A stretch of DNA of 64,000 bases. Source: Diplonema japonicum (Eukaryota > Protista > Euglenozoa: Diplonemea). The position numbers were made by a program, and so were the translations under genes. The stretch lies in contig OZ025648.1 in assembly GCA_964019335.1 (NCBI GenBank), positions 868,001 to 932,000 on the forward strand, written 5' to 3'. Under the pieces are notes generated by a model. The model ran no database searches. It was not told where the DNA came from and was given only the letters and a program-made list of their open reading frames with translations. Shown here one piece after another: positions 1-63,751 of this stretch (position 1 is its first letter; every line of letters starts with the position of its first letter).

Positions 1-534
1 CCTCATGCAGCTTGACACGAACTCGTATGGATGAAAACAAAAAAAAAAACAAACAAAAAAAAAAAGGTACGGTGTTGCAATGGCGGGCAGTATCACCCAC
101 CCGCAGTTGGCCCCCAGTGAGTCATTTGCGACCCTGATCCCGTTGACGGTGAACCCGGCGAGTGCGGATAAAAAGGGGGAGCAGCATCTTAAGGTGGCGT
201 TGAAGACGTCAGCAGGTGTTGGTTTCGGTCAGGCGATATGCCCATTGGATTTCATATGCCTGCCCGGAAGCGGTCTGAGCAAGGAAGACTTTCTCTCTGT
301 GTGGAAGGGGATCCAAGACGAGAAGCAGTTCGCACTCAACACCAACGTGCAGGCGACCGTCGACTCCGCCCTGCGCGGTGCGGGGTACAACTTCATAACC
401 TGCCGATCGGACCCTTCCACTGATGGCCTCAACGCTATGCAAGATCACTACTACTACAGTGTCTGCACGCTGACGGGGCATCAAATTGTTTTCGAAGTTG
501 CTTTCAGCTCGCTCTCGCACGCTTGCATGGTATG

Positions 535-572
<38 letters not shown>

Positions 573-1722: not shown

Positions 1723-2551
1723 ATGTCCCGTCTTGCTCGCAAACTGGAAGCGTTAAAGTGCCCCTACACCTGGTCTGATGAAAACATCACTATTGGTAAG
1801 ATACGAGAGATGGTAATTTGGCTTGAAGACACGAAAATCAGGTGGCTCCCTGTCGAGGAAAGAGCGGGGCTGAGGACGGACGACGAGCGAGAATGGCTGC
1901 AAGCGTTCCTGAGATACTGCCAAGAGATTGGCTACACGAAGTCTTTCGGGATAGGGCTGGGTCTGGACTACGCCTCGGAACCGTCGTTTAGACAGTGTTT
2001 AGATTGGGTGGTGGGGAAGGCTGTGAGGTTCAGCTTTACAGACAACCATTCCAAATTCAACGAGGGACACGAAAAGTACAGAAGCATGGGGATGTGCAAT
2101 GTGACGAAAATTCAAGAAAGTGCAGGCGATGAGGATATTCAAAAATATGATGTTTCCGACACGGAGGGAATGACAGAAATTTGTACACGGGTTCTTAACA
2201 GCTTGAAGCTCCCTGAAGATACCGATCTTGAAACAGGGCTTTTCACCATTGCAAGGCTGTGCAACGATGCGTGTTCTTTCCTTGACCACAATCGGCCCAC
2301 CGCCCCTCCTTCTGTTGACGAAATGCTTAGTCACCTTCCCACAGAGCACGCCAAGAACCCAAAACTTGAAAAAATCTTGAAGCTGCTCCGCACGCTCTTC
2401 GTCTCTGACGCGAGAGAGCTCCAAAACAGAATATCTGAAATTATCTGCGAGCTGCAAGGGGTTACACACAATATTAAAACAGACGTCAGGTATGTAAAGA
2501 ATAATAATCACGTTACTTTCTCTTTACAGCGCCGGGGTTGTAGGGAGTTAA
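1723..2551 (+). CDS. RTRAF: RNA transcription, translation and transport factor (C14orf166/CGI-99, RLL-motif; tRNA-ligase complex subunit)
   Basis: RKLEALKC..., VIWLEDTKIRW..EERAGLR and C-terminal RELQNRISEII.ELQ....KTD match the family. Intron 2490-2529 gives KTDVSAGVVGS*, like human KTDHRLGKVGR*. Confidence 0.85.
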
Positions 2552-7300: not shown

Positions 7301-8542
7301 AGCTCGACGATCGTGCCACCATGCTAACAAGAAGGGAGAGCGATCTGGAACACGCCACCCTGATGCACGAGGAAGATGTGAAGCTCCGAGAGTCACGGCT
7401 GCAGGATAGAACAATCCGCTTAGAGGCCCGCGAACAAGACCTCATGGAGCAGACAGCAGCGGCAGATGCAAAGGAGCGTAGAATGCTCCTCGGAGAGCAG
7501 AGCGCAGCGATATCACTCAAAACACGAGAATTCGAGGAACGAGCACGCGAGCTCGAGATGAGAGAGCGCCTTTTGCAAAGCAGAGAAACGGCAATAAAAC
7601 AGAAAGAGCAACAGGTATGTCATTACTACCATTATACACTTATCACTTATCTTTGCAGCTCGTTGAGTCGGAGCACGATAAACTAGCCGCGATATCTGCC
7701 GAAATGGCGGCGATGGCAGAACGGGAAAGGCTTCTGACGGCCGGAGAGGACGAGCTGCGGAGGATGAGTTACGAAGACGAAGACAAACGCAAACAGCTGA
7801 TAATGTCACAAGAGGAACTGACGAAAAATGCCAGGAGACTCGAGGAGCGTGAGCGGGACCAGGACAGAAGAGAGGTATGACCCTTTGAAATAATATAAAA
7901 AAAAAAACAAACCGAACAACAAAACAGGCACAACTCGCTACTTCAATAGACGAGGTTGGTAAAAAGGAAATCTTATGCAGAGCAGATGCTGATGAGATCC
8001 GGCGTCTTGAGGAAAGAATTAGAGAACTACAAGTCGATGCCGAAAGGAGACATCAAGGCGTCAGCGTGCAGGAAAGAGAATTGAGGGAACGCGAGGAGAA
8101 GCTGATAATGCAGGAAGCCATGGTCGAGGAACACGAGAGGATACTGAAAAGGAAAACGGAACAGCAAGAGAAGAAGCAACGGCACATGGAAGACATGGAA
8201 GCCTCCTTCAAGCGAAAGGAAGAGCTGGTCGCGCAGACCCTCCGTGAGATCGACAGGAAAGACGAACAAGAAGAGAGGCTGCACCACAGGCTGAGCAGTT
8301 TGAAAGAACGTGAAGACAGGCTGTTAGAACGAGAATCCCGCGTCTACACCGCCACACCCCCTCGTGCCCCCAAGTACTCTCATTACGCCGGTACTATCTC
8401 TCCTACTCGAAAACTCCCTGTTTCTGGTGGGTACACTTCCAGCATACAAGCTGATCTGGACTCGATTAGGGACAGCTTGGCCTCATTGACACCGCGTGAC
8501 GCTCCTTTTTCTGATTTAGTCTCGCCGAGGCTGCGGCATTAG
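4360..8542 (+). CDS. large coiled-coil protein with repeated ~45-aa 'RLxxFYxxHxP...LFxxLxxRYG' domains
   Basis: ATG 4360 follows TTTTCTTTCACAG. Introns 7615-7658 and 7875-7927 join the 4339, 7617 and 8066 ORFs in frame. Long E/R/K/Q heptad region. Confidence 0.8.
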
Positions 8543-11800: not shown

Positions 11801-12334
11801 CGACCAACACAGCGGGAGGGGAGTGGAAAATCCGGATCCCTGTGAACCCAGTTTTGTGCGGGAGGAAGCTCGGCGTGAGTTTTCTTCACACGCTGCCTCA
11901 GATGGTTGTGGTATGGCAGAAAAAAAAAGGAAAAAAAAAAACACAAAAAAATAGGAGTCCCCTGTCTTGGCATCTACATGCGTTCTCCCGGTTCCTTTCA
12001 CGATGCCGTTTAAGGTCTGCATGCACGCGAGACCGGACGAGACACGAGTTTTTGCCAATGTATGTGAACAAAAAAAAAAAACTTTTTTTTTTTTAAACAA
12101 ACATAAAAGGCAATGTTCGAGAACCAGCTTCCCTTCAAAGTCAGACTTCTCTCCATCGAACCTGTCATGCCCGACAGCGAGCCCTACGGCAGTGTCGGCG
12201 ACAATCGCTACGAGGTGGTGAGGAACAAAACGTGTGCTGGGATCGTACTGGGCCCGAAGGAGGGCTATGCCAAGGCCCTGTCCTTGCAGTGTGGGAAGAA
12301 TGAGGTAGCTAGCAAGATGTGCGAGTATGAAACC

Positions 12335-12370
<36 letters not shown>

Positions 12371-12852
12371 ACAGAGTTGCCATGAGGGTGAAGTATCAGA
12401 GTGCTGAAGAGTCTGATGAGACAAAATCTGTTAACACGTTCGAGACGTTCCCTGTAAGGTGGCTCCCGCCCGTCCCTCCACGTGCTACCGTTTACGTAAC
12501 TATGGCGGACTTTGCGGAGCCGTTGCTTCTCACTAAGACTGTTGCCTTCAACATAACTATTACCCATAACGGTCGACCTGAGGACAGTCCTCTCCACCTT
12601 TGGTCTGTTGTCGTTTTCCCTCTCGACGATTGGTTTGTGGTCGGCCCCTGCAGAAAGCTCATCACATTAACTACCGAATCCCCGACAGTTTCCTTCCCTG
12701 TGCACATGACGCCGATTACCACCGGGAATCTCGGGACCCTCTCGGTCAGGCTCACCTCGCGGACCCAGCATGGAATGAGCTCACTTCCTGACCAAGAAAT
12801 CCCCATCCGGTTGGTACAGTCTCAGGCAAGGGTCATGGTTGTCAATGGATGA
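8890..12852 (+). CDS. TRAPPC10: TRAPP II complex subunit TRAPPC10/Trs130-like
   Basis: N-terminal HPYLHI.....D...K...L.TW and CPYIAIIDEIGMILLQFGMRDEA..Y; C-terminal DWFVVG...VHMTPITTGNL..LSVRL. Introns 11911-11954, 12060-12109, 12325-12374. Confidence 0.7.
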
Positions 12853-13355: not shown

Positions 13356-14606
13356 ATGGACCTCCGAGTTGGGTCGAAATTTCGGATAGGCAGAAGGATA
13401 GGAGGGGGATCGTTTGGTGAGATCTACCAAGGGACAAATATACAAACCTTAGAACCGGTGGCGATAAAATTGGAGCCTGTGAAAACAAGGCATCCGCAAC
13501 TGCTGTACGAAAGCAGGCTATACAAGCTGCTGCATCAAGGGCAGCAGGTGATAGGGATCCCGCAAGTTCGGTGGTACGGTGTAGAAGGCGATTTCAACGT
13601 AATGGTGGTGGACCTGTTGGGGCCCTCGCTGGAGGACTGTTTCAACTACTGTGGGAGGTCGCTTTCCACAAAAACCGTGTTGATGCTGGCAGACCAAATG
13701 ATTGCACGGGTGGAATTTTTGCACAACCGCAATTTCTTGCACAGGGACATCAAGCCCGACAACTTCTTAATGGGGCTTGGTAAGAAGTCGCACCACGTCT
13801 ACATGATCGACTTTGGTCTGGCAAAGAAATACCGCGACCCGAAAACCCACCAACACATCCCGTATAAGGACGGAAAGAACTTGACAGGTATATATATTCT
13901 CAGGGAAAAAAAAAAAAAAAAAAAAAAAAAAAAGGAACTGCCCGGTACGCATCAATCAACACGCACACCGGAATAGAACAGTCGAGACGGGACGACCTTG
14001 AGGCAGTGGGGTACATTGTGATGTACTTCCTTAGGGGGCAGCTTCCTTGGCAGGGGCTGAAGGCGCACACAAAGAAGCAGAAGGTAGGAGAACAAAAAAA
14101 AAAATCACAAATAGAAAAAAAAAAAAAAAAAAATCTCCGTAGTATGATCGCATCGCTGAAAAGAAGATGCAGACGTCAATTGCACAGCTGTGTGCGGGGT
14201 ACCCTCAGGAATTCTCCAATTATCTGGTATTTGAGGGAGGGAGGAGGGGGGGAAAAAATTGCAGAATTACGTGCGGTCCCTACGTTTTGACGACAAGCCT
14301 GACTATCCCGTGTTGAGGAGCAGGTTCAAGGAGCTGATGGCGAAGGAGGGCTGTGTCTGTGATTATGTGTTTGATTGGACCATAAAGCGGATACAGGAGT
14401 GTGTCTATGCTGATGAGTCGCAGCGGAGAGACGCAAGGAGAAGGGTATTTTTTTGGGGGAGAGGGAAAAAAAAAAAAAAAAAAAAAAAGTCCCCTGAATC
14501 CACCGTCAACGCCACTCAAGCATCTTCCGAAAAAGAAAAAGAGAAAGAGAAAGAAAAGCGTGAAAACGATAATGGGGTTGTCGTGCAGCCGGTCGGAGCT
14601 GAGTAG
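13356..14606 (+). CDS. CK1: casein kinase 1
   Basis: [36 protein letters not shown]; spliced [37 protein letters not shown]. Introns 13888-13934, 14084-14142, 14227-14264, 14445-14489. Confidence 0.97.
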
Positions 14607-19087: not shown

Positions 19088-21877
19088 ATGTCAGGGAAAA
19101 ATGCCGGTAGGCCACCTTCATATAAATTAGAAGCGCAGTTGGATGATCAAGTATGGGAGGACAGGAGAAAGAGCCAGCAGTCAGTAGAACCAGAGGGGCC
19201 ACCACGGGAAGAAGATTCGGGAGAGGAATATGACGATCTCCTTACGGATCGGAGGAAGAAGAACAACAAGAGGGACACGAGAAGGTTGACCATCCAGTTG
19301 AAAAAGAAACTGTGCATCACGAAGGAAGAGGTGCCGTCTTTCTGGGCAGAGAAGGAGGCGGCAGCGGTGAAGAACGGCGGCAAGCTGCGTCCAAGGTTTT
19401 CGACCGACCCCCACATCCACACGTTTACAAAGGACGAGCTGACTTCGATGGCGAAACACAACGAGAGCATCGACTCCCGCCACCCCCACAGCCTAGCATA
19501 CCGAAAATTCTTGTCCGAACGAAGCCCTGTCAAACCCTTTGCTAAATGGATGATATTCATAATAATAGGCATAACGATAGGTCTAATCGGGTTCCTCATG
19601 TTTCAGTGCATAGGGTACCTCTCCCAACACCGCCGAGACCTACTCACGTCTATCTACCGCAGCGCTCGCCGTGACGGCACTGTGGAACATTATTTCGCAG
19701 CGTACGCTGCATGGGTTGGAACGGGGGTCGCGCTTGCTTTCATCTCAATGTTGTTGGTAAAATGGTGCCCCCCTGCGGGTGGGAGCGGAGTAACCGACGT
19801 GATGGCGTACCTGAACGGCGTCTTTTTCAGGAAAGTGTTCAATATTAAAACATTGCTCGCAAAGTCGATCTCGTGTATATCTGCGGTCTCGTCTGGGCTC
19901 CCTGTCGGCCCCGAAGGCCCCATGATCCACATCGGCGCGATAGTAGGCGCGGGGATAGGAAGCGGGCGGTCGAAAACCCTGAAATTCAGTTTCAACAAAC
20001 TGTTTTCGCACATCAGAAACCCGAGAGACCACCGGGATTGCATTACAGCCGGCGCGGCAGCAGGAGTGGCAGTTGCGTTCGGCGCACCAATTGGAGGGCT
20101 TCTGTTCGTGATGGAAGAGGTCGCAACGCACTGGCATGCTCAGCTAACCCCTTTGATCTTCATGTGTTCGCTCGTCGCGGCATTCACATACGGCCTGCTT
20201 GCATCGCAGTACGACGGGTGGGAGCTTCGGCATGAAACAGCCTTTGGAGGGCTGATCGACGAGGCGACTATTTTGTTCAACTCCTACTCAGACAGGCATA
20301 TGTACTCACGAGACATTGTCGAATCGTCCATTATTGGTGCTGTGACAGGTGCCTTGGCAGTTTTGTTCACAAAGTTGAACATGTACTTTGCAGAGAAACG
20401 ACTTCGGTACGAGCCTGCTTTTAAGATGGTGGAACCGGTTTTGGTTTTGATCATTTATCTGAGCATTTGTTTCGCGTGTCCTGGGTTTCTGCCGTGTACT
20501 GATCTTCCTGAGCCGGATAATTCTACGATATCAGATGAGAACGGGACAGCGCAGTATGAAGAGATCGAGAGGTTGTACCTTACCTCGCCGTGTCATGAAA
20601 ATGATAAGTTCAGCAGTGCGGCTTCGCTATTCTGGAATCCGGGTGAGAGTGTGATAAAACTGTTGTTTCGAAAGCACTCCCCGTTTGACATCCCTACCAT
20701 GGCGTTCTTTCTTGTCGTGTACTTCTCTTTCTCGTGTTACTGTTGCGGGATGCAAATATCCAGCGGGATCGTGATCCCCATGCTTGTCACGGGGGGCACC
20801 GTGGGGCGGCTTTTTGGCCGTTTTATCCACAACGTTATCGACAGCACGCAGCATGAGGGCGTGTACGCTATAATAGGTGCCGCGGGGTACTTTGCAGGGG
20901 TGTCGCGGCTCACGGTGAGCTTGGCGGTCATCATGATCGAGTTGACGAATGAGAAACGGATTTTACTGCCGATCATGTGCAGCGTGATGGTCGCAAAGAT
21001 GGTCGGGGACAGGTTCTCACACTCGCTGTACCACGCTTTGTTGCAGGTATTTGTTGTGGTGGGGCAAAAAAAAAAAAAAAAAAAGCTCCGGGCAGTCCCA
21101 TTCTTAGATGTGAACGAGATGGAGGGAATGCACAACAGACATGGTGCATGTTTTCGTATGTAATTTTGAAAAAAAAAAAAAAAAATCACATTTTTAGGAG
21201 CGATGGATATCTGTAAGAAACAAATAGTGGTGCTGAAGGCGAGCGAGACGATTGAGAGCTTGCAGTCGGCTCTGCTGGCCTGCCCGCATCAGGGCTTCCC
21301 CGTGGTGGATGATGAAAACAGATTTTTGGGGATGATAACAAGACAGCAGCTGCACCCGTTAGTTTGGAACCTCCAAGAGGGGATCCGGACAGGAGAGATG
21401 CAAGAGGCTACATGGAGCAGACTAGCCTTGATAGAAGAGGAGCGGTTTGTGAATAACGATCTTGTGTGCGACACTGATAGCTGCGAGCTAGAGACGTTTC
21501 GCAACACCGATATTGATCTTCTTGAACACACCGACACGTCTGCCCTTACTGTTCATGGTTCTGTCAGTGCAACGGTGGCCCAGCAGCTCTTCACCTCAAT
21601 GGGCTTGCGGCACTTGCCTGTCATCAACGAGAAGGGTATCATCATGGGGATGATTACGCGGAAGGATTTACTCGCTTGTAGACTTGAGAAATCCATGTTG
21701 AAATCTTTGCTGAAAGTCGATCAAGATTTCCCCGCAGAAACTGCCTTGCATCTCGACTCCGATGTAGAAGACTGGGAAGTGTTTGAGTGGGTATGCCGGA
21801 GGAAAAAAAAAAGAAAAAGAAAAAAAAAAAAAACACACACACACACACAACAGAAAGAAAAAGAATCTTTCATTTAG
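19088..21877 (+). CDS. CLC family Cl-/H+ antiporter (CLC-6/7-like) with CBS pair
   Basis: GSGVTD, GPEGPMIH (gating Glu kept), FGAPIGGLLFVMEE, SLY; CBS motifs HQGFPVVD and GLRHLPV...GMITRKDL. Introns 21047-21085, 21156-21197, 21791-21853. Confidence 0.93.
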
Positions 21878-22322
21878 GTTGGAGATATCCCCCTTTTTTT
21901 TTGTGCTTATTTTCCTTAATAATGCGAATGGAAAAAAAAAAAGTGGGAGGGGAGGGAGGGGTGTGTGCTTCGATCAACAAGAAAGAAAAAGAGAATAAAA
22001 AAGGGGGGGGGGAACGTGGGGAAATGTGCGTTTTTGTATACGTTATGTATAACGTTAACAACAAAAAATTGGGTGGGGGGGGGGAGAACCTCTCCCATAA
22101 AACTTTACCACAGGCCTTATTCACGAGCTTTTTTTTATAAAAAAAAAAAATGAAAAGTTATTGTGGTTTTCTGTTCCTTTTTTCTTCTTCTTCTTTTTTT
22201 TTTTTTCTTTTTTTTTTTTCGCTCTTGCAGTACATAAAATTACGATTGTTTCTTTACCAACGATTCTAAAGCTACAGTTTCTGTACTTTATTGGTGGTGG
22301 GGATAACATGGAAATATAAGAA

Positions 22323-31809: not shown

Positions 31810-32874
31810 ATGATCGACAAACGAGTCATCGCTGCCCTGTTGGGCGGCATAGCAATCACGATACTTTTAAAGCAGTCATCGAGGGAAATCGACGAGGGGC
31901 GGGCAAGCGAGCTGAAAGGATTGATGAAATTTAAGAAAGAAGGTAACCACACACACACACCCTCCATCCCCCCTACTTATAACAAACACAACTTTCTTTT
32001 TTTTTCTTCAAACAGAAAATGAAGTAGACGACGCCCCACGGATAAAGATCAAAGCATGCTTGAACGACGCGACCGTTGCGCATAAGGTCTGGGTGAAAAA
32101 CAAAACAAAAAAAAAAAAAAAAAAAAACCACAGATCACCCTGTGGACCATGTTAATCCCACAAGGGGAGAAGAGGGGTTATGTCGATGCAGCGAAAAAAC
32201 TACTGAAATCCGCGAAAAGACACAGCAACGTAGAGTTCGACGCCATGCTATTGGAATTGAAGGAGAAACCCCTTACAGACGACATGAAGGACGAGCTCAA
32301 AGCGGAAGGGTGGGGGATTTGCGTGGTGAATAGGTTGCCGCCTCCTGACGAGGAGGCTACCTTCAAGCACTTTCGCGACCAATTCACAAAATTTGCTCTC
32401 TGGGAAATGGCGGAGCTCGACACCATTCTCTACCTAGACGCCGACACCTACATCGTGGGCGACATAACGCCCCTCCTGACTACAAAACTGGAAGGGAAAA
32501 AAATGGGCGCCGGTCGGGATTTCATGAAAAACCGAGGTGGCTGGGTGGATACCTTCAACATGGGTGTTTTCCTCATACACCCCAACACCGCTGACTACAA
32601 CGAACTGATTACATATCACCGTGGGGACCGTCCTCTTGAATACAACAAGCATTGGTCAGAGCAGGCCTTCCTCAACGCTCTCTGGAAGGACAAATGGTAC
32701 GATCTTGGTTTCGAGCACAACGCCAACCTTGCGCTCTACACCGAGGACCCTGCCTTCTGGAAATCCCGTCAAAACCATATTCGGGTGGTACACTACACCA
32801 TGAGAAAGCCTTGGAAGAATTGTCAAAAAAGCCCTTACTACGAAATCTGCAAATGGTGGTTGGAAGAGCGTTAA
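31810..32874 (+). CDS. glycosyltransferase family 8 (glycogenin-like), type II membrane
   Basis: N-terminal TM; FTKFALW, YLDAD, FNMGVF, EQAFLN, VVHYT..KPW. Introns 31943-32015 and 32087-32133 keep the frame. Confidence 0.85.
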
Positions 32875-33145: not shown

Positions 33146-33360
33146 GGCTTGAGGTGGTACAATGGTAAGAAGAAAACGTCATGACAATGGAACTTGCTGT
33201 AGATTATGAGCAGACCACCTGCCGGTCACTCACAGGCCCCCTCGACAGGAGACTTCCCCTCGAGCCAAATAGCACGGCTCCATGTAATATTTCTCTCCCA
33301 GATGCCGTCCATCTCGCGATAGCGGTGAGCACCCCCCATGCACACTGAAATTTTATCGAG
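33143..33360 (+). mobile_element. family A retroelement fragment, internally deleted copy of 45102-45563
   Basis: Colinear match to 45102-45563 with a near-identical terminus GTGAGCACCCCC(C)ATGCACACTGAAATTTTATCGAG plus T tail. Confidence 0.8.
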
Positions 33361-34776: not shown

Positions 34777-36029
34777 ATGCAAAAGCGAGGTAAGAAAGAG
34801 AAGGATGAGGTGGTGAAGCCGAAGGTGGAGAAGACGGTGAACCTCACTTTGGACGACCTTCCTGACCCGAGCGAGCTGAAGATGAAGGAGAGCACCCTAC
34901 AGATAATGATCATTTTCCTGGTCCTCGGAATGCTTTACATTGTGGCCTTCTGTCTGAGGCTGTTTTCAGTGTTGAGATACGAGAGTATTATTCACGAGTT
35001 CGATCCCCACTTCAACTTCCGTGCAACGAAAACACTTGTATATGATGGTGTGGAGGCGTTCTACAACTGGTTCGACACTCTGGTGTGGTACCCACTCGGA
35101 AGATGGGTAGGCCACACGGTGTACCCAGGTCTTATGTTGACGTCGGGAGCGATCTACCATACTCTTCATTTTTTCCATTTCCCCATTGACATTAGGAATG
35201 TGTGTGTGTTTCTCGCACCGCTCTTTGCAGGGAACACAGCGCTGGTAACGTACATCCTCACGAAGGACTGTTGGGACTCCGGTGCGGGGTTGATCGCTGC
35301 TGCATTTGTTGCCATTGTCCCCGGGTACATCAGTCGTTCAGTTGCAGGGTCATACGACAATGAAGCCATTGCTATTTTCGCCATCATCAACACCTTCATG
35401 GGCTTTGTCAAATCTGTGAAAACCGGATCAATGAAATGGGCGGCGTACTCCGCTGTTGCGTACTGCTACATGGTTCATGCTTGGGGTGGGTACATTTATA
35501 TCATCAACCTGCTTCCCGTGTATGTGTACGGGATGGTGCTTATCGGGAGGTACTCCCACAGGTTGTATGTTGCTTACTCCACATTCTATGTTCTTGGAAC
35601 GTTGTTCTCTCTGCTTGTTCCTTTCGTCGGTTTCGCTGCTGTATTCTCGAACACGCACATGGCCGCTCCCATCGTCTTCGCGCTGCTTCAGTTCCACAAC
35701 ATTATGGGTTTCTTGAGGATGCATTTGGGTGACAAGTTGGCGTTGTTCTTCAAGAAGATGGTGTCGTTCCTTGCGTCGGGTGCGATAGCAATCTTCGCCG
35801 CGTGTCTCGCGCTTGGTGTGGTGGACATCACCAAGACGGGGCGTTTCTTTTACATGTTGAACCCCGCGGCGAACACCATCCCGATCATCGCGTCGATCAG
35901 CGAGCACCAGGCCACACCGTGGTCATCGTTCTTCTTCGATTTGTCGTTCCTCGTGCTTCTTATGCCCGTTGGGATGTACTTCTGCTTCAGAGAGTGGACC
36001 GACGGCGCGGTATGCCTAATTAACAAAAG

Positions 36030-36074
<45 letters not shown>

Positions 36075-38041: not shown

Positions 38042-38064
38042 ATTTTAAAAAAAAAAAAAAGAAA

Positions 38065-44833: not shown

Positions 44834-45563
44834 CCCACAGCCCTTCACGGGATAGTCCCAAGAGGAGCCGACAAAGCAGGGAAAGAACGTGCCAGGATGG
44901 TGCAACAATACCTCCTGAAAGTAGTGACAGTCCGTGACGCCAGAGCAGCGGAAAAAAGCAAGAGAGTGCTCACCTCCAACCCTTGGGATGAGGTAACGAC
45001 AGGGGGGGCAACATGATGTTCCGACGGAAGCGTTGCTGAAGGCGAACGGGGCGTCAGGCGCGGTCCTGACCTTTCATTTGAAGAACGTCCTCAAGTGGCT
45101 AAGAGGCCTACGATGGTACGATGGTAAGAAGAAAACTTCCGTCACTACAATGGAACTCGCCATAGACTATGAGCAGACCACCCGCCGGGCACTCATAGGT
45201 CCCCTCGACGATCAAGACCTGCTCACGGAGAAGGCCGCAAGGATGCGATACATCTTGGGTCGCATCCAGAAATGCTCAGCACGCTGTGGAAGGTCAGCCT
45301 TCCCCGCCAACGCGGGTGCATACCCTTCGACATCTTGGGGGCCCGACGGCACACGGCTACGACAGGAGACCACTCTTCTCCTCGAGCCAAACCCCCCCCT
45401 ACCTAGCACGACTCCAAGCAATGTTTCTCGCCCAGATGTCGTCCATCTCATCGCGACAAACAGCCACCGCAGGCACCAGACAGCAACCGCAGAACGGTGA
45501 CCGATTAGTGTGAATTTCTACCTGAACAGTGAGCACCCCCATGCACACTGAAATTTTATCGAG
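44834..45563 (+). mobile_element. 5'-truncated non-LTR retroelement-like fragment, family A
   Basis: Disrupted frame LHGIVP...MVQQYLLKVV..R...NPW...LKWLRGLRWYDG...VTTMELAIDYEQTT; second copy at 33143-33360; T-tracts on both sides. Confidence 0.7.
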
Positions 45564-45641
45564 TTTTTTTTTTTTTGTTCTTCAACGTTTTTTTTTTTTT
45601 TTTTTTTTTTTTTTTTGTTTTTGTTTTTGTTTTTGTTTTCC

Positions 45642-45807: not shown

Positions 45808-48698
45808 ATGAACCCCGAAAGCCCGCGGAGCCCCGGCAGGATGTCCCCACGACGACCAAGCGTGAAGTCCGTCTTCTGGAAAGTGGTGGTTTTAATGATA
45901 CTGTTTTTAGGATGCAGCCTGACCGTGGGCTTGCACGCCACGGGCGTGATAGGAAACGTCTACCGGGTAACAGTAGTAGGCGTGGGCACAATGGAGTATC
46001 AAGGAAATCCTAGTTTCGTCAGGGAGCTAGTAGGGAACCACAGCAACCCAGGCATAGGGTATCTTAAGAAGCAGTCGATGCTGACCCCGCCGTATCGGAT
46101 AGAAGTGGAATGGGTTTTGGTATATGCATCGAACCTGAATGTCAACGTGAAAAAGCTCCCGAAATCTGTAATGGGCGTGACTATAAAGGCCCTTCAGCCC
46201 CCTGGGATGGTAAGTTACACAGAACTCGCAAACTTCGGATCTGAGTTCACCTCTCAAAGGACAACGCATATAATGCTGTTATCGCTGACGCACTCCCCAT
46301 CGCAGGGACTCATCAAACATCTCCTCAAACCTCACTTGGACCACGTGGACATAGGTGTCACAGGGTGTACCATCACCACCAAGGACACTGTCGGTGTCCC
46401 GAAGGTAGTTGAGCATGGTCTTATCGTCGGTAACGGGTGGTCCGACACCACGTGGAAAGCACATCTCCTCAGGCAATATTCAGGATTCACACCGATCGAC
46501 CACCGTGTCAGTGATATCTCTGAAGTGGTCGCTGTCAGTCCTTACTGCATGTTCACAGACATGGTGTTGTGGACTGCCTTGAAAGGCCTTCGAAAACTAT
46601 CATCCGGAATACAGGAACAACTTGCATTGGGCATCCTCCCGAAAGATTTCACATTCAAACAAACGATCTACCTCAAGAAGAAGGTCCTCGCGCTAGGTGC
46701 CCTCTCGGTCTCAATCCCTATCAAGAACGACGTCACGCTTAAGCAGAAGAAGACCAGGGCATCTGCGGAGAACGCGCTTGCAGACGCGGTGAACCTGTTG
46801 GAAACCATAGAAGGAAAAGGCTTCTACGACAAGGCGGAAAAACTTACTCTTCTTGACGAAGATCTAAAGCGGCACGGCAGGTCCGGTCATGAACAGCTGG
46901 ACGCTTTGCTGACAGAAATCAAACCTCTTATATTAAAGATGAAGGACCTGCACATGTCCGGTGTGACGGGATCGCAAGAGGAAGGGGGTTGGGATATGTC
47001 CCTTCGGTTACGCCAGCGTGACTTGAAGGTGCTTGTGGTACCAACAACAGCTGAGGTGCTGCGGGGAAACTTGCCGCCGACCATGCTGCCTGTTGGGGGG
47101 AACGAGTCTGTTCCATTCTCCCCACCTTCGCACGTTATAGACGGGACCTTCGCGAAGATATGGGGAAACATCATCGGGAAGTTCTGGCCCGGGAACATGG
47201 ACGCGCATGTCATTAACGATGAGTCGGGGACCGGCGCACAGCGCAAGCTCCCGCAGTCTTCAATGCGTGTTATCTGGCAGAGCTTTTGCTGCCATTGCTG
47301 TGGGTATGAATGTGGGAAGAAAGAAAGAGAAGAAAAAAAACCCCCCCTCAGATTCTCCAACGAAATCTTACACCTCGTTTTTCCCCTGCAGCGGAAACAC
47401 GCAGTCGACCTCATCCCTTCCCCAGACTGTTTCTGTCAGGTATTTTCATTTTTTTTTTTTTTGAAAAAAAAAAAAGAAATCCACATTTTACAGGGCTACC
47501 CCAGCGCAGTTCTGGACAGTCTGTCTAGGATGCACCTTCCGAAACCTTTAATGGAAAGGCCTGTCAACCACGAGGACATCGTGATATGGGTGAGCCACAC
47601 GGATCCAGGGAGCTATTTGACGGGGGACTTGGAGAGGAAGAAACCTACTTACGTCGTGGGTATGACTACCACCACCCAACAAAGAAAAAAAAAACCCCCT
47701 CCCCCTCAGGAAGGAGCATGTACGAGTTCACAAAAATACCAGGAAGGTGGGTGAACGAGTGCAGGGACAACGCAGACGAGATTTGGGTACCATCGTCCTT
47801 TGTGAGGGATGTCTGGGTGGACAATGGTGTGGCTGAGGATAAGGTTGTTCTCATCCCGGAAGCAATTGACGTGTACTTCTTCGACCCTGATGTGGCAGGG
47901 AAGGTGTCGATACCTTTCCCGCAGAAGTGGAAACACTACGACTCGATTCCCGGGAGGCTCAGACAACAACACACATTCAAATTCCTGTCCCATTTCAAAT
48001 GGGAGGACCGCAAAGGCTGGGACATCCTCATTGAAGCTTACTTCTCGTCTTTTTCCCGAGCCGAAAATGTAACGCTTGTCATTCTGACACACATATGGTT
48101 CCCAGGTCCACCAGAGACACATGGCGACGCCACCAATCACACATTTGTGAAGGAAAAAATCGAAGATTATGCGAAAAAACACATGAACAGGGAACCGAGT
48201 ACATTGCCGCACTTTGTTATCATTACTAGCAGGCTGTCGGAGGAGGATGTGGCTGCGCTGTACAACACCATGGACGGGTTTGTCCTTCCCACTAAAGGGG
48301 AGGGTTGGGGGTTGCCTCCTTTGCAAGCTATGTCCATTGGGATACCTACTGCAACTACGAATTGGTCTGGGTCGGTGGACTTTCTCGATCCGAAACATTC
48401 TTTTCCCATTCCCATCGATAAGCTTGAAGAGCTCCCAACCGACTCTGTCTACGGCTACGTTTCTGGTAAGCTGTGGGCAAGGCCTTCTCTGTACGAAACC
48501 TCCAGAATCATGAAGTACATGGCCAACCCTGCCAACAAACTTGAAATGAAGGAAATTGGCCATCGTGCTCGAGCACACGTTGTCAAGCACTACAGTGAAG
48601 AAGCGGTTGCGGAAATCGTGTCGAACAGAATCACAACCATCAAAGGAATTATTCTGAACGGGCAGGTGCCTAGAAGGCATCCGAGGAACTGGGGGTGA
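45808..48698 (+). CDS. type II membrane glycosyltransferase: degenerate GT2-like region plus C-terminal GT4 domain
   Basis: TM near N-terminus; GT4 motifs GRSMYE, ADEIWVPS, FKFLSHFKWEDRKGWDIL, LPTKGEGWGLP..QAM. Introns 47304-47351, 47440-47493, 47660-47709. Confidence 0.8.
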
Positions 48699-51775: not shown

Positions 51776-52150
51776 ATGAGCGAAATGCCAGAAATTGAAG
51801 CACCGAAAATAGAAGCAGAAGACAAGCCCGTCAGCGTCTCGACCTTCGTTCAGGATTTGCTGGGGAAGGAGGTGGTTGTAAAGGTGAATATTGGTATGTG
51901 GGAAAGAAGGGGAATAATCATAATAGGGTCTGAGTACAAAGGCACACTGTCGTGCCTGGATGGTTTAATGAACATTGTGCTGCAGAATGTGGAGGAACAC
52001 GCTGGTGGCCGGGTAAAAAAAACCTACAAAAACGCCTTTATAAGAGGCAACAACGGTACGGGAAAAAAAAAACCTTCTAAAAAAAAAAAAAAAATCCTTC
52101 CATCCACAGTACTTTACATATCTGTTGCGAAAAGTAAGTTGTTAAAGTAG
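51776..52150 (+). CDS. LSM6: U6 snRNA-associated Sm-like protein LSm6
   Basis: Spliced GKEVVVKVNIG/SEYKGTLSCLDGLMNIVL...AFIRGNN/VLYIS. Introns 51894-51926 and 52056-52109. Confidence 0.85.
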   Translation: MSEMPEIEAPKIEAEDKPVSVSTFVQDLLGKEVVVKVNIGMWERRGIIIIGSEYKGTLSCLDGLMNIVLQNVEEHAGGRVKKTYKNAFIRGNNGTGKKKPSKKKKKILPSTVLYISVAKSKLLK

Positions 52151-52302: not shown

Positions 52303-55236
52303 ATGAGCTTCATAAAAAAGCTCATAAAGCCCAAGAAAAAGAAGAAGAAAGATGAAGCGGTTTTGACACAGTTTATAGAAAGGACGTTTCTGTTGCAAGT
52401 TCCGGTTGGCTTCGACACCGAGAAGCTAGAAGAAAAACTGGCAAAGGTGGGAAGCGAGGAAACGATGATGGCACTGAACTGCACCACGCTGCAGTCCCTG
52501 GGAGAGTTCCAGCAAATGAAGTTCGAAGACGGACAACGACCAGAAGACCTGGGCATGCTGATGAAAGTCTGCCTTCAAATCCACAAATGGCTCAGTTCCT
52601 CCCCTTCAGCCCTCGCGGTCATTGTAACAAATTTCGGTCCTGCCGACCCTGCTGCCCTCATATGCGGCTGTCTCATGTACTATATGCATCCCTCTGCCTT
52701 TGGCGGTTCGCCGATCGAAAAGCTTCGTGACAACAACGTTGTGTCCTTCTTCCCTTCTACCTCGCGGTATGTGAAGTGGTTCGGTTTCACCCTGCAAGGC
52801 ATCCACCTGCATACCGATCGTATGCTTCTTCAACGAATTGTCATCAAGAAAGCGGGCGATCTAACATACGACAATTTTGCCCTCTCAATCACCGACCCGA
52901 AAAGCAACCCCCTCTACCACACTAGGGATCCCGACATCTTCCAGTTGGACGATTCCATTGATATAAAACTCGATAAGTGCTCGATTTTCGGTGATTTTGA
53001 AATATCGTATGTAGTATACCTGACTGAGGAGGAGCCTCCTCGGACGGAGTGCAAGCTCAGATACGCGTTTTCAACATTTTTCCTGTCCCTCCCTGAAGGC
53101 GCCGACACCATTGCTCATGCCGTGCCACGGGATGAGCTCGACTACACCTCCACCAGCAAGATGGTTGATCCCGGCCTCACCATGACCCTTCACTTTCAGA
53201 AGTCCCCTGTAGACGAGGCCATCGCGGAAGACACCATTCTCATTGATGATGTGAGCCGAATAGTCACCCACGCTCCTAGCACCAATGCCGGGTACGACCT
53301 TACTATTAACATAAACGGGTCGCCTGACGCTACTGCCAAAGGGTCCGTGGAGCAGACACAGGATTATGAGTACGTTGCTTTAAAGCTTTCCGAGGATACG
53401 CCTTATAACACGCTCGTTAAGGAGTTTAAGGAGTCTATTAAGGAGAAGGCGAATACTAGTTTTGACTCCTTTCCGCAGCATAAGCTCAATGATGATACGA
53501 CTGCCAACGAGCTTGATGGATTCTTTCATGAGTCGCCCTGTACACCTCTCTCGCCGACCGGTTTTGGTGCTTCTCCGCCGCCTCCGCCTATGGCAGTGGG
53601 ACCCCCAAAACTTGGAGTGATGCCCCCGCCCCCGCCCCCACCCCCTCCCGGGGCACCTCCTCGAGCTCCTCCGCCTCCTGGTGCCCCGGCACCCCCGCCT
53701 CCTCCGCCCGGTAAGGGAGCACCCCCCCCGCCTCCCCCCGGAGGCGGCCTCGCGCCTCGCCCTCCTCCGCCTCCTCCTGGAAAAGGTGTACCTCCACCCC
53801 CTCCAGCTGGAGGAATCCCTCCTCCCCCTCCGCCGCCTGGAAAAGGTGGCCCTCCACCACCTCCCGGTGCCCCTGGCGCGCCGCCCCCGCCTCCACCTAT
53901 GTTCGGGAGTGCTGCAAAACAGGTTACGAAAGCTCTGCACTGGAAAAAGGTTCAGGTGAACATCGCAGCAGGCTCCGTGTGGGAGAGCATCTCCGAGAGG
54001 AGCAAAAAGGACTCCGCCATCAACCTGGACAACCTGAAGGAGATGTTCAAAAAGGAAAGCACCGCGAAGAAAGCGCAGGAGAAGAAACAAAACACGAAGA
54101 AGCAGTCGACAGCCATCTCGGGCAAGAGGTTAAACAACCTGGGCATCGTGCTGAAGGCGGTGAAGGTACACAAAAAAAAAACCCCCCCTCTCCCTTCAAA
54201 AAGAAAAAAAAAACCCACCCTCCAGCTATCGCCTGAACAGATAAGGGACGCACTGCTGCAGTGCAATCAAGAAACGATGACGCAGGGCGTGTTGGAACAG
54301 ATGTACCCAATCATACCAGACGAGGAGGAGGTAAAGGGAGTGATGAAGGAGGTGGGGTCGGATGTAGAATGGACCATCATGCATGTATGTTACTTCCTTT
54401 CTTGCTTCACAACCTTCCATCAGGAGTACGTCCACATCATGGCACGGGACGTCCCTGACATGAAGGAGCGCATCCTGCTGTGGCTCTTCACATACGAGTT
54501 CAAAGAAGCGATGGACACCACACTGTTCGACATCGAGAGGCTGCAGACCGCACTGGACCTCCTGCTTCTTGAAAAAAGCAAGTTTTTGGACGTTCTAGCT
54601 GCCGTGCTTGCTGTGGGTAATACACTGAATGAGGGGACTTCGAAAGGTGCTGCTATAGGATTCTCTGTAGGCGACTTGGACAAGGTATGGGGCACTGGGG
54701 AATGCATTATAACAGCTATGTGCGTTGCGGGCCACAGACGGTTCCACTCTGCTCGAGTTTTTTGTGAAGAATATCGTCGAAAACTCGCCTGAGCTGCTTG
54801 GTTTTGTTGAAGAGCTTGCGCCGCTTGCGGCGGCACTCAACGTGCCCCTCTCCATGGTGCAGCAGGAGGTCGGGAAGCTGGCGGCGAGATTCAAGAAAAT
54901 AGACTCGAAGGTGTCGGGAGAGGATGCCTTCTCGATGATGCTCAAAGGGTTCAAAGACAGAAACGCTGCCAATGTGGCCAAGCTTGTCTCGTCAAGAGAA
55001 ATCGTAAGCAAAAAAGTCCGGAAGCTGGCCGATCATTTTGGAGAGGTGTGGCGGAAAAAAAAAAAAAAAAAAAAAAAAAAACACAGACGGCGGCTCAGTT
55101 CGACGAGACACAGTTTTTTTCACACATCAACACGTTTCGGTTGGCGTTTCAGAAAACCTTGAACGCGCACAAAGAACGGGAAGCTCGGAAAAAAAAGCAG
55201 AAAAAAGAAGAGCTCCAGCAGGCAAGCCGTCCTTGA
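52303..55236 (+). CDS. formin with N-terminal PTEN-like/C2 region, FH1 and FH2
   Basis: PSTSRYVKWF and IFGDF (PTEN/C2-like); polyproline FH1; KALHWKKV, KRLNNLGIVL, VLAVGNTLN...GF, TLLEF. Introns 54166-54225, 54385-54423, 54685-54715, 55046-55086. Confidence 0.9.
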
Positions 55237-57149: not shown

Positions 57150-57181
<32 letters not shown>

Positions 57182-57555
57182 CCCTCTCTCAATTTTTACA
57201 GAATTTGATGATAAGCGGGTCCACACGAGCGCCGGCGAAGAGAAAAATGAATTCTAAAAAGAAGAAGTCAAGCAAGGATGTGCTGGAGACCCCGCTCAAA
57301 GAAGATTTGACGTGCTCCGAGGAACTCATCAACTATTATGACGCTCTTCTGCTTCAGAATTTCGTGCAGCAAGAGCAACTCAAGCACATCACCCTGTCGG
57401 CTCTCACACAAGCGAGCATGGCACACTGCCACCCCCACCCCCACCCCCAGCAGATTGATCAGTGCAAAAGAAAATTTAAGAAACAATCAATGCCGGCTCC
57501 AACTATAGCCGCCTTGGCAGCATCTGATCATGCTATCGTCCCCCTCGCACCGTGA
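56634..57555 (+). CDS. WW-domain and EF-hand-like protein
   Basis: WIKHVDDSTGREYWYSQETFESRWTDP; LFTKYDEDEDGKWLEAEV. Introns 56883-56939 and 57150-57201 join three ORFs in frame. Confidence 0.75.
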
Positions 57556-59028: not shown

Positions 59029-59065
59029 AGGCGTCCTGCCACATACCGCAGGTACCCTTAAATGT

Positions 59066-60249: not shown

Positions 60250-60321
60250 GCGGTTTTCGTATAGTGGTTAGTACACTTCGTTGTGGCCGAAGAAACCCGA
60301 GTTCGATTCTCGGAAGCCGCT
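60250..60321 (+). tRNA. trnH-GUG: tRNA-His (GTG), intronless
   Basis: Full cloverleaf: acceptor GCGGTTT/AAGCCGC, D arm GTAT..GTAC, anticodon arm CTTCG-TTGTGGC-CGAAG, T arm CCGAG-TTCGATT-CTCGG; T6 follows. Confidence 0.95.
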
Positions 60322-62116: not shown

Positions 62117-63751
62117 ATGGAAGTGCTGTTATTAGCGATGCTTGTTGTAGGGGTGTCCGCTGAGGACGCGTGTTGGGAGGAAAAGAAAAATATGTACATG
62201 TCGTGTTTCGCCGCGGATGACGACACCCAAGGGAGCTTGGACGAGATGCAGAAGAAGTGCATTGATCTGGAAGACGCTTGCTTGGGTGTGACCTGCTCGA
62301 AAGAACAAAAGTGCAGCATGAGACACCACCGCAGGGAGGGCTGTGAGGGAGGCAAGTTCTTAGACGAATCGAAGGTGGAGGAGACCACGTACGTGAAGGT
62401 CTGCAAAGTCAACGAGCACAAGTGGGACATATACCCCCACAAAGTATGTCATTATGTCAAAAACCCTTAAACCAAAACTAAAACCAGTACATCCCATGCT
62501 ACGCCAAAGATGACCAGGAAGTAGGTGAACTTCTTGAGAGGAAGATCCGTTGCTCTGAGATGGGCGATGAATGCGTGGGTGTGACATGCGGCTCGAAGGA
62601 CGGTGGCACCACCACCTTCAACTGCACCGTCCGCGACCACACAGCAGGCTGCAAGGGTGGTCTTGCCGACCCCCTCGCTGACTCGGAGGATGAGGTCTCG
62701 TTCGTCATGGTATGTTGAAACAACCAAAAAAAAAATTATATTTCTTAGGACCCCATTGTGTTCCCCACCACCATACCCGCCACTAACGCACCTCCTATTG
62801 GCGAGTCCTGCCGTTTTGAGGTTCACGACAAGTCCTCCTTCACCTGCAACCCTCCCGATGTTAACGCCAAGAGGATGACCCTAAAGGAGGCGCAGCAGCA
62901 GTGTGTTACCATGAAGGACCCTCAGCAAGGGGGGTTTTGCAACGGTGTTGAGTGCACATCATGGGATGGCGAGCTTGAGACATGCCTCCCGCACATGCAC
63001 TGCGTTGCGGAGGGTCAGCAGATGCTGAAGGTCAGCACAAGCGTGGTCCACATTAAGAAGTGTTCCGACGGGAAATTTTGCACCGACCCGTGCAACGCCA
63101 AGGAAGAGTTCAAAAACCACGTATGCGAGAACGACTGCGACTGTGGAGGCGTCAGGTACTGCTCTGAGTCTGGGTACTGCAAAAACCCCACGGGTCTCTC
63201 ACCATTCGAGGAGCTGTGCATCACGGACCATGATTGCATCTTCGAGAAGCACACAAACAAGTACATGAAGTGTGAAGCCTCCGCTTCCACTGGTAAGGAC
63301 AAGATGACTCTTGAAGAGGCTCAGAAAGTATGCAAAGAGATGAAAGGCCTCTGCGCTGCCGTCACTTGCGTAAAGAATGAGTGTTCTCTGCGTAACCACA
63401 TGTTGGACACGTGTAACGAGCCGCATGGTCTTTTCTTCAACCAAGGTGAGGACACCTATCTGAAATGCTGTGGACCTGAGAAGGAGAAGCGGTGCCCTGG
63501 AGGAACTAGCAGCGGGTCCAGCAATGGCCACACGGGTTTTTTGGTTTTCTTGGTGATTTGTCTCATTGCTGGTGTGGCTGTGCTTGCCTACTGGAACCGC
63601 CAGATGGCCAAGGACTACATAGCCCCAAACACCTTTAATGCTGTTCCTCAGGACGAGGAGGTGTGTACTTTTTTTTTTTTCTCACTTCCACAAAATATGA
63701 CAGGCTGACAACAACTGGGTGATTGATGACACTAAGGAAGACGACGAGTAG
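62117..63751 (+). CDS. Cys-rich type I surface protein with four internal repeats
   Basis: Signal peptide, four C...[KM]Y..C...L.E....C......C.[GA]V.C units, TM FLVFLVICLIAGVAVLAYW, acidic tail. Introns 62444-62487, 62710-62748, 63661-63703. Confidence 0.8.

What the first reader, a model, noticed from the sequence alone, without database searches (positions are those of the whole stretch)
530..571. Minimal poly(A) introns with no pyrimidine tract or branch consensus (e.g. GTATG-A36-G)
Seen: intron 530-571 is GTATG, 36 A, G. Many others are A-tract cores, and seven end directly in ...AAAG (66, 571, 12109, 13934, 14489, 21085, 36073). Lengths are 31-73 nt and 20/35 donors are GTATG. Conserved protein frames (CK1, STT3, CLC) confirm the boundaries. 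T-tracts instead dominate the intergenic spacers upstream of genes. Established: AAG acceptors are rare in most eukaryotes, U2AF normally needs a pyrimidine tract, and kinetoplastid trans-splice acceptors are defined by poly(Y). Inference: a two-code system in which poly(Y)+AG means trans-splice/polyadenylate and a short A-rich GT..AG means cis-splice, with the acceptor defined by distance to the first AG and any A usable as branch point. A few T-rich introns (57150, 63661) are exceptions.
Basis: partly seen in the sequence, partly recalled or inferred. Interest (0 to 1): 0.8.

Follow-up and report, generated by a model that had tools for sequence, protein, structure and literature searches.

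The report
A-rich short introns of Diplonema japonicum
These are real, very short introns of the marine protist Diplonema japonicum whose 3' ends are rich in A instead of pyrimidines, a trait published in 2025; they are likely removed by an ordinary spliceosome, and a separate code for cis- versus trans-splicing remains untested.

Summary
Intron 530-571 is GTATG + 36 A + G. Removing it and intron 25-66 gives 186 of 186 residues identical to a transcript-derived Diplonema japonicum protein. STT3 (720/720) and a formin-like protein (920/920) match likewise, so 9 of my 36 introns are transcript-backed. Lengths are 31-73 nt, 20 of 36 donors are GTATG, 7 of 36 acceptors are AAG, and 0 of 36 have YTRAY. 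Thakur et al. 2025 (PMC12621601) report these traits genome-wide for this species, and found U2AF1/2.

A strict first-AG rule fails: 4 of 36 introns skip an AG 31-38 nt from the donor, 3 of them independently supported. YAG still wins (29 of 36). Seven of 36 have pyrimidine-rich 3' ends. T-runs are not significantly depleted against size-matched spacer windows (p=0.11), and the 40 nt before start codons are as A-rich as introns (p=0.45). No SL-addition data were obtained, so the two-code idea is untested. Likely mechanism: intron definition from a strong donor, any A as branch, and an AG-free zone before the acceptor.

The parts
530..571 (+). Focal intron, GTATG-A36-G (42 nt), last intron of an AP-complex beta-adaptin gene
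   Evidence: Spliced product matches the last 186 of 186 residues of transcript-derived P0121; retention gives an in-frame stop
25..66 (+). A-rich intron, AAG acceptor (42 nt)
   Evidence: Same P0121 identity
1376..1419 (+). C-rich intron (44 nt)
   Evidence: Frame only
2490..2529 (+). Intron with pyrimidine-rich 3' end (40 nt)
   Evidence: Frame only
7615..7658 (+). Intron with pyrimidine-rich 3' end (44 nt)
   Evidence: Frame only
7875..7927 (+). A-rich intron (53 nt)
   Evidence: Frame only
11911..11954 (+). A-rich intron (44 nt)
   Evidence: Frame only
12060..12109 (+). Intron with A12 and T12 runs, AAG acceptor (50 nt)
   Evidence: Frame only
12325..12374 (+). A33 intron (50 nt)
   Evidence: Frame only
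13888..13934 (+). CK1 intron 1, AAG acceptor (47 nt)
   Evidence: Frame; the next exon aligns from its first full codon to CK1 residues 176-224
14084..14142 (+). CK1 intron 2 (59 nt); skips a TAG 31 nt from the donor
   Evidence: Flanking exons align to CK1-delta 176-224 and 225-252, contiguous
14227..14264 (+). CK1 intron 3, G-rich (38 nt)
   Evidence: Frame only
14445..14489 (+). CK1 intron 4, AAG acceptor (45 nt)
   Evidence: Unverified: in frame and stop-free if retained
21047..21085 (+). CLC-like gene intron, AAG acceptor (39 nt)
   Evidence: Unverified: in frame and stop-free if retained
21156..21197 (+). CLC-like gene intron (42 nt)
   Evidence: Frame only; stop on retention
21791..21853 (+). 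Candidate intron (63 nt)
   Evidence: Unverified: in frame and stop-free if retained
31943..32015 (+). Longest intron (73 nt), pyrimidine-rich 3' end
   Evidence: Frame only
32087..32133 (+). A-rich intron (47 nt)
   Evidence: Frame only
36010..36073 (+). STT3 intron 1, A38 run, AAG acceptor (64 nt)
   Evidence: Spliced protein 720/720 identical to transcript-derived P0001
36773..36814 (+). STT3 intron 2 (42 nt)
   Evidence: P0001 identity
36977..37022 (+). STT3 intron 3 (46 nt)
   Evidence: P0001 identity
40516..40560 (+). Candidate G-rich intron (45 nt); would skip a GAG at 32 nt
   Evidence: Unverified: in frame and stop-free if retained
47304..47351 (+). Glycosyltransferase intron 1 (48 nt)
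   Evidence: Gap-free junction against D. ambulator ortholog P0127
47440..47493 (+). Glycosyltransferase intron 2 (54 nt); T14 run; skips an AAG at 37 nt
   Evidence: Gap-free junction against P0127; the skipped AG would frameshift
47660..47709 (+). Glycosyltransferase intron 3 (50 nt), C-rich 3' end
   Evidence: Gap-free junction against P0127
51894..51926 (+). Sm-like gene intron (33 nt)
   Evidence: Unverified: in frame and stop-free if retained
52056..52109 (+). Sm-like gene intron (54 nt)
   Evidence: Unverified: in frame and stop-free if retained
54166..54225 (+). Formin-like gene intron 1 (60 nt); skips an AAG at 38 nt
   Evidence: Spliced protein 920/920 identical to transcript-derived P0247
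54385..54423 (+). Formin-like gene intron 2 (39 nt), pyrimidine-rich, only 3 A at -30..-10
   Evidence: P0247 identity
54685..54715 (+). Shortest intron (31 nt)
   Evidence: P0247 identity
55046..55086 (+). Formin-like gene intron 4, A27 run (41 nt)
   Evidence: P0247 identity
56883..56939 (+). A45 intron (57 nt)
   Evidence: Frame only; stop on retention
57150..57201 (+). T29 intron (52 nt), best test case for aberrant SL addition
   Evidence: Frame only
62444..62487 (+). Intron (44 nt)
   Evidence: Frame only
62710..62748 (+). Intron (39 nt)
   Evidence: Frame only; stop on retention
63661..63703 (+). T12 intron (43 nt)
   Evidence: Frame only

Best explanation
These are short GT-AG introns of Diplonema japonicum with A-rich 3' ends, likely removed by the ordinary U2-type spliceosome, which would define each intron across its short length from a strong GTATG-type donor, branch at any convenient A, and join to an AG that follows an AG-free zone. 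Shown: the introns are absent from transcript-derived proteins (9 of 36 directly); no AG lies closer than 13 nt upstream of any acceptor; G is depleted at -13..-5; YAG is preferred. Inferred: U1/U6 recognition of the donor, intron definition, a consensus-free branch as in trypanosomes, and a weak or dispensable role for U2AF2 on A-tract introns. AAG is used when the A-run reaches a G at 39 nt or more from the donor; a short pyrimidine tail plus YAG wins over a closer AAG. The A-tract is likely unstructured, AG-free filler that also supplies branch adenosines, grown by homopolymer slippage; the same filler sits before start codons. Cis versus trans is likely decided mainly by whether a donor lies about 30-70 nt upstream, not by the A-tract itself.
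For: Identical transcript-derived proteins: 186/186, 720/720, 920/920, named D. japonicum in EukProt. All 36 are GT-AG. 20 of 36 have no internal AG and in the other 16 the nearest lies 13-44 nt upstream of the acceptor. G is 5 of 324 positions at -13..-5 versus 70 of 538 at -28..-14 (p=2e-10, positions not independent). AAG is 7 of 36 where local A frequency (0.56) predicts about 20 (p=1e-5). Pyrimidine share at -10..-4 is 0.04 for AAG, 0.52 for CAG and 0.60 for TAG acceptors. The 40 nt before start codons are 49% A versus 54% in introns (n=26 and 36, p=0.45). PMC12621601: 10,131 D. japonicum introns, 98.33% canonical, median 41 nt, GTATG donors, A most abundant in the tract, YTRAY in 13.9%, U1 and U2AF1/2 found, eight introns checked by RT-PCR. 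T. brucei has no branch consensus and uses any A (PMC9639853, PMC6597758).
Against: No branch point was mapped, here or in the parts of the paper I read. U2, U2AF and SF1 sequences could not be inspected (no genome held). 23 of 36 introns rest on frame alone and 6 are unverified. U2AF2 is retained in the species (PMC12621601), which fits either reading. The strong strand bias (A over T in 28 of 36 introns, against 16 expected) is not explained by neutral slippage alone. The skipped TAG at 31 nt in CK1 needs a soft, not sharp, distance limit.
Confidence: 0.7

Rival explanations
1. Two-code system: poly(Y)+AG marks SL trans-splicing and polyadenylation, and an A-rich tract positively marks cis-splicing, read by a changed U2AF2 or another factor.
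For: Runs of 8 or more: introns 29 A vs 5 T, spacers 86 A vs 110 T (Fisher p=9e-6, runs not independent). Spacers are 30-44% T from -320 to -41 before start codons in most 20-nt bins (26% in the farthest bin). In T. brucei, U-tracts under 9 nt trans-splice poorly and purine insertions hurt (PMC9639853). E. gracilis shows one shared pattern for introns and outrons (PMC11170887), so a difference here would be notable.
Against: T-run depletion is not significant against size-matched spacer windows (5 vs 8.5, p=0.11). 7 of 36 introns have pyrimidine-rich 3' ends, and one (54385-54423) is transcript-confirmed as cis-spliced. Sequence before start codons is as A-rich as introns. The poly(Y)+AG scan scored the same on the reverse strand.
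Confidence: 0.2
2. Pure ruler: the acceptor is the first AG beyond a fixed minimum distance from the donor, whatever its context.
For: Holds for 32 of 36 introns with a 31-nt minimum.
Against: Four introns skip an AG at 31, 32, 37 and 38 nt; three are supported by a transcript-derived protein, an ortholog or CK1 structures. A confirmed 31-nt intron lies in the same gene as the skip at 38.
Confidence: 0.05
3. The A-runs are assembly artefacts or the segments are not spliced.
For: Exact homopolymer lengths could not be checked; laid contigs were cut at the run.
Against: Spliced forms match transcript-derived proteins exactly. One contig of a relative has 15 letters where the window has 57, a difference of 42, the intron's length (run X2, RNA by guess only). 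An independent study reports the same A-rich tract (PMC12621601).
Confidence: 0.02

Closest known systems
Canonical introns of Diplonema japonicum (Thakur et al. 2025, RNA, PMC12621601)
   Same: Species, GT-AG ends, GTATG donor, short length (median 41 nt there, 45 here), A-dominated tract, rare YTRAY (13.9% there, 0 of 36 here).
   Different: The text I read gives CAG as the typical acceptor and does not discuss AAG acceptors, the AG-free zone or a comparison with SL acceptors (0 hits for 'outron' and 'spliced leader'). Its logos and supplements were not visible to me.
Trypanosoma brucei SL trans-splice acceptors (PMC9639853, PMC6597758)
   Same: No branch consensus; any nearby A is used.
   Different: They need a U-rich tract and prefer the first AG after it; the introns here mostly lack such a tract.
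Euglena gracilis conventional introns and outrons (PMC11170887)
   Same: Euglenozoan GT-AG introns with an atypical tract, next to SL trans-splicing.
   Different: The tract is C-rich and shared between introns and outrons; introns average about 500 nt.
Kinetoplastid cis-introns of PAP1, DBP2B and RBP20 (PMC11613528)
   Same: Cis-introns in a trans-splicing background; no recognisable branch motif.
   Different: Only three genes, and pyrimidine tracts are universally present.
Non-canonical structured introns of hemistasiids and euglenids (PMC12621601)
   Same: Short introns in a diplonemid.
   Different: Those lack GT-AG and pair their G/C-rich ends; these are all GT-AG and A-rich.

Membership tests
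U2-type spliceosomal introns | GT...AG ends | tested here: met
   36 of 36; the catalogue was built on this rule, but 9 are fixed by transcript-derived proteins
U2-type spliceosomal introns | Removed from mature mRNA | tested here: met
   9 of 36 by identical transcript-derived proteins; 4 more by homology; 23 not tested this way
U2-type spliceosomal introns | Conserved extended 5' splice site | tested here: met
   GTATG 20 of 36, GTAT 28 of 36; pairing with this species' U1 not tested
U2-type spliceosomal introns | Branch consensus YTRAY (typical, not universal) | tested here: not met
   0 of 36; 13.9% genome-wide in PMC12621601
U2-type spliceosomal introns | Polypyrimidine tract (typical, not universal) | tested here: not met
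   Median pyrimidine share 0.4 at -22..-3; 16 of 36 at or below 0.3; 7 of 36 at or above 0.6
U2-type spliceosomal introns | Lariat formation and dependence on U2/U2AF/SF1 | not testable with these tools
   No reads across lariats; no genome held
D. japonicum A-tract introns (PMC12621601) | Species is D. japonicum | tested here: met
   Three spliced proteins identical to EukProt EP01064 entries; relatives 58-87% alike
D. japonicum A-tract introns (PMC12621601) | A most abundant upstream of the acceptor; median about 41 nt; GTATG donor | tested here: met
   A is the top base at all 22 positions from -25 to -4; median 45 nt
Non-canonical euglenozoan introns | Ends other than GT-AG | tested here: not met
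   All catalogued introns are GT-AG; end pairing not computed
Two-code cis/trans system (proposed) | SL acceptors are poly(Y) while cis acceptors avoid it | tested here: inconclusive
   No SL sites mapped; proxy tests mixed

The most novel reading that the evidence does not exclude
D. japonicum separates cis- from trans-splicing by tract composition: U2AF2-type pyrimidine recognition serves SL addition only, while cis-introns as simple as GTATG-A36-G splice with no 3' information beyond adenosines and one AG, and are kept A-rich by selection against capture by the spliced leader.
Probability: 0.2. Interest if true: 0.65.

Novelty: already known. Interest (0 to 1): 0.27.

Why it matters
The A-for-pyrimidine swap at D. 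japonicum acceptors is in print, so the trait is not new. What stays open is how a spliceosome that keeps U2AF picks a branch point and acceptor inside a pure A-run. Intron 530-571, now backed by a transcript-derived protein, is close to the least informative intron possible (donor, adenosines, AG) and is a clean substrate for that question. If SL acceptors proved to use a different tract, it would show how an intron-rich genome with polycistron-like gene arrays keeps the spliced leader off its cis acceptors.

Tried and rejected
No whole genome is held for the window, so U2, U2AF, SF1 and genome-wide intron counts could not be examined. The genome index did not complete, so no orthologous introns from relatives were compared. 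The run search listed no holder on record as RNA; that is no evidence either way. Reads were laid only on 1-690, for 4 of 7 listed runs, all as contigs; no joint was listed because contigs were cut at the repeats. Contigs of X7, X3 and X4 each end 34 letters past place 522, inside the A-run if collinear: a weak hint only, as the letters were not shown. A scan for the best poly(Y)+AG per spacer was dropped as circular: 23 of 26 spacers scored 0.6 or more, but so did 22 of 27 reverse complements. A metagenome scan with the adaptin gave 80 loci at 55% identity or less, no close relatives. Rfam found only one tRNA. A search of earlier scan findings returned nothing. One gene start (39276) was 7 nt off and corrected to 39283; the effect on spacer counts is negligible. 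Strict first-AG selection and the artefact reading were rejected (see rivals).

Full report
Observation. Positions 530-571 are GTATG, 36 A and G, 42 nt. I annotated 28 plus-strand genes and 36 GT-AG introns in 15 of them. Lengths are 31-73 nt (median 45). Donors are GTATG in 20 of 36. None has YTRAY in the last 50 nt. Cores are 55% A. Against size-matched windows from spacers, A-runs of 8 or more are strongly enriched (23 of 36 vs mean 5.7; 0 of 5000 draws).

The introns are real. Removing 25-66 and 530-571 gives the last 186 of 186 residues of P0121. Spliced STT3 equals P0001 at 720 of 720, and the spliced formin-like gene equals P0247 at 920 of 920. All three are Trinity transcript-derived EukProt entries labelled Diplonema japonicum. 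This fixes 9 introns, including 3 of the 7 AAG acceptors. Three glycosyltransferase junctions align without gaps to a D. ambulator ortholog. The CK1 exons flanking 14084-14142 match contiguous residues 176-224 and 225-252 of solved CK1-delta. The other 23 rest on frame; six of these read through without a stop and are unverified. In laid contigs, one record of run X2 (another organism, RNA by guess) has 15 letters where the window has 57, a 42-letter difference.

What is known. Thakur et al. 2025 (PMC12621601; I read parts 1-4 of 8 of the text, covering introduction, results, discussion and part of the methods, plus term passages; figures and supplements not seen) mapped 10,131 D. japonicum introns. 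The paper has no hit for 'outron', 'spliced leader' or 'SF1'. My searches listed no paper comparing cis and SL acceptors in this species; most subscription papers are outside the library. Valach et al. 2023 (PMC10161547, passages) describe unidirectional gene clusters and near-universal SL addition in D. papillatum; a term search of its 7 supplementary files found nothing on acceptors, and I did not read its intron supplement, which may bear on this. The species' genome note (PMC13598402, passages) has no hit for 'intron'.

Acceptor choice. Twenty of 36 introns contain no internal AG; in the other 16 the nearest lies 13-44 nt upstream of the acceptor. G is nearly absent at -13..-5 (5 of 324 vs 70 of 538 further upstream). 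AAG is used far less than local A content predicts (7 vs about 20 of 36, p=1e-5). Four introns skip an AG lying 31, 32, 37 or 38 nt from the donor, and each skipped AG would frameshift the gene. One skip (54166-54225) is in the same transcript-confirmed gene as a 31-nt intron. So a strict first-AG ruler fails. A softer rule fits: all 7 used AAG sites are 39 nt or more from the donor, the skipped late AAG are at 37 and 38, and CAG/TAG acceptors carry a short pyrimidine tail (0.52 and 0.60 at -10..-4, vs 0.04 for AAG).

Two-code idea. In its favour, A-runs outnumber T-runs 29 to 5 in introns but 86 to 110 in spacers, and T. brucei needs U-tracts of about 9 nt or more for trans-splicing (PMC9639853, passages). 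Against it, T-run depletion in introns is not significant once window size is matched (5 vs 8.5, p=0.11). Seven of 36 introns have pyrimidine-rich 3' ends, one of them transcript-confirmed. The 40 nt before start codons are as A-rich as introns (49% vs 54%, p=0.45). My proxy for SL acceptors failed its reverse-strand control. No SL site was observed. In E. gracilis, introns and outrons share one pattern (PMC11170887, passages). In nematodes the trans-splice target is described as an unpaired 3' splice site (PMC5737717, passages), which offers a simpler rule: a nearby donor makes the acceptor cis.

Mechanism. Shown: short GT-AG introns, removed from mRNA, with an AG-free zone and a YAG preference. 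Inferred: intron definition from a strong donor; branching at any A, as described for trypanosome trans-splicing (PMC9639853, PMC6597758, passages; no branch motif in kinetoplastid introns, PMC11613528, passages); the A-tract as filler rather than code. I put this at 0.7, the two-code system at 0.2.

Verdict. A real feature, already known for this species. Interest is modest; the remaining value is a near-minimal, transcript-backed intron and a sharp, untested question about cis versus trans acceptor choice.

Noticed in passing
window 22255-22293: A 39-nt spliced-leader-like sequence, 36 of 39 identical by my comparison to the 'Euglenozoa 14' SL consensus printed in PMC3795323. It is followed by GTGGTG and then by an element whose second copy (22937) lacks the SL; both end in poly(T). 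Possibly a retroposed SL-capped RNA or an SL RNA variant; Rfam gave no match.
   Followed up: partly
window 23677 and 51510; a diverged copy near 59030: Short dispersed repeat of about 45 nt ending in poly(T); two exact copies of a 34-nt core.
   Followed up: no
window about 33160-33360 and 45120-45570: Two related non-coding segments ending in poly(T), seen by eye; possibly a degenerate retroposon family.
   Followed up: no
window 60250-60321: A tRNA gene on the plus strand inside the gene array.
   Followed up: no
window 57150-57201: The T29 intron is followed by an ATG 6 nt after its AG, so the same AG could serve as an SL acceptor for a shorter product; no transcript evidence either way.
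   Followed up: no
whole window: All 28 annotated genes are on the plus strand; homopolymer runs of 10 or more are frequent (73 A, 79 T, 9 C, 8 G). One spacer is only 23 nt (38042-38064), too short to hold its own processing signals.
   Followed up: partly
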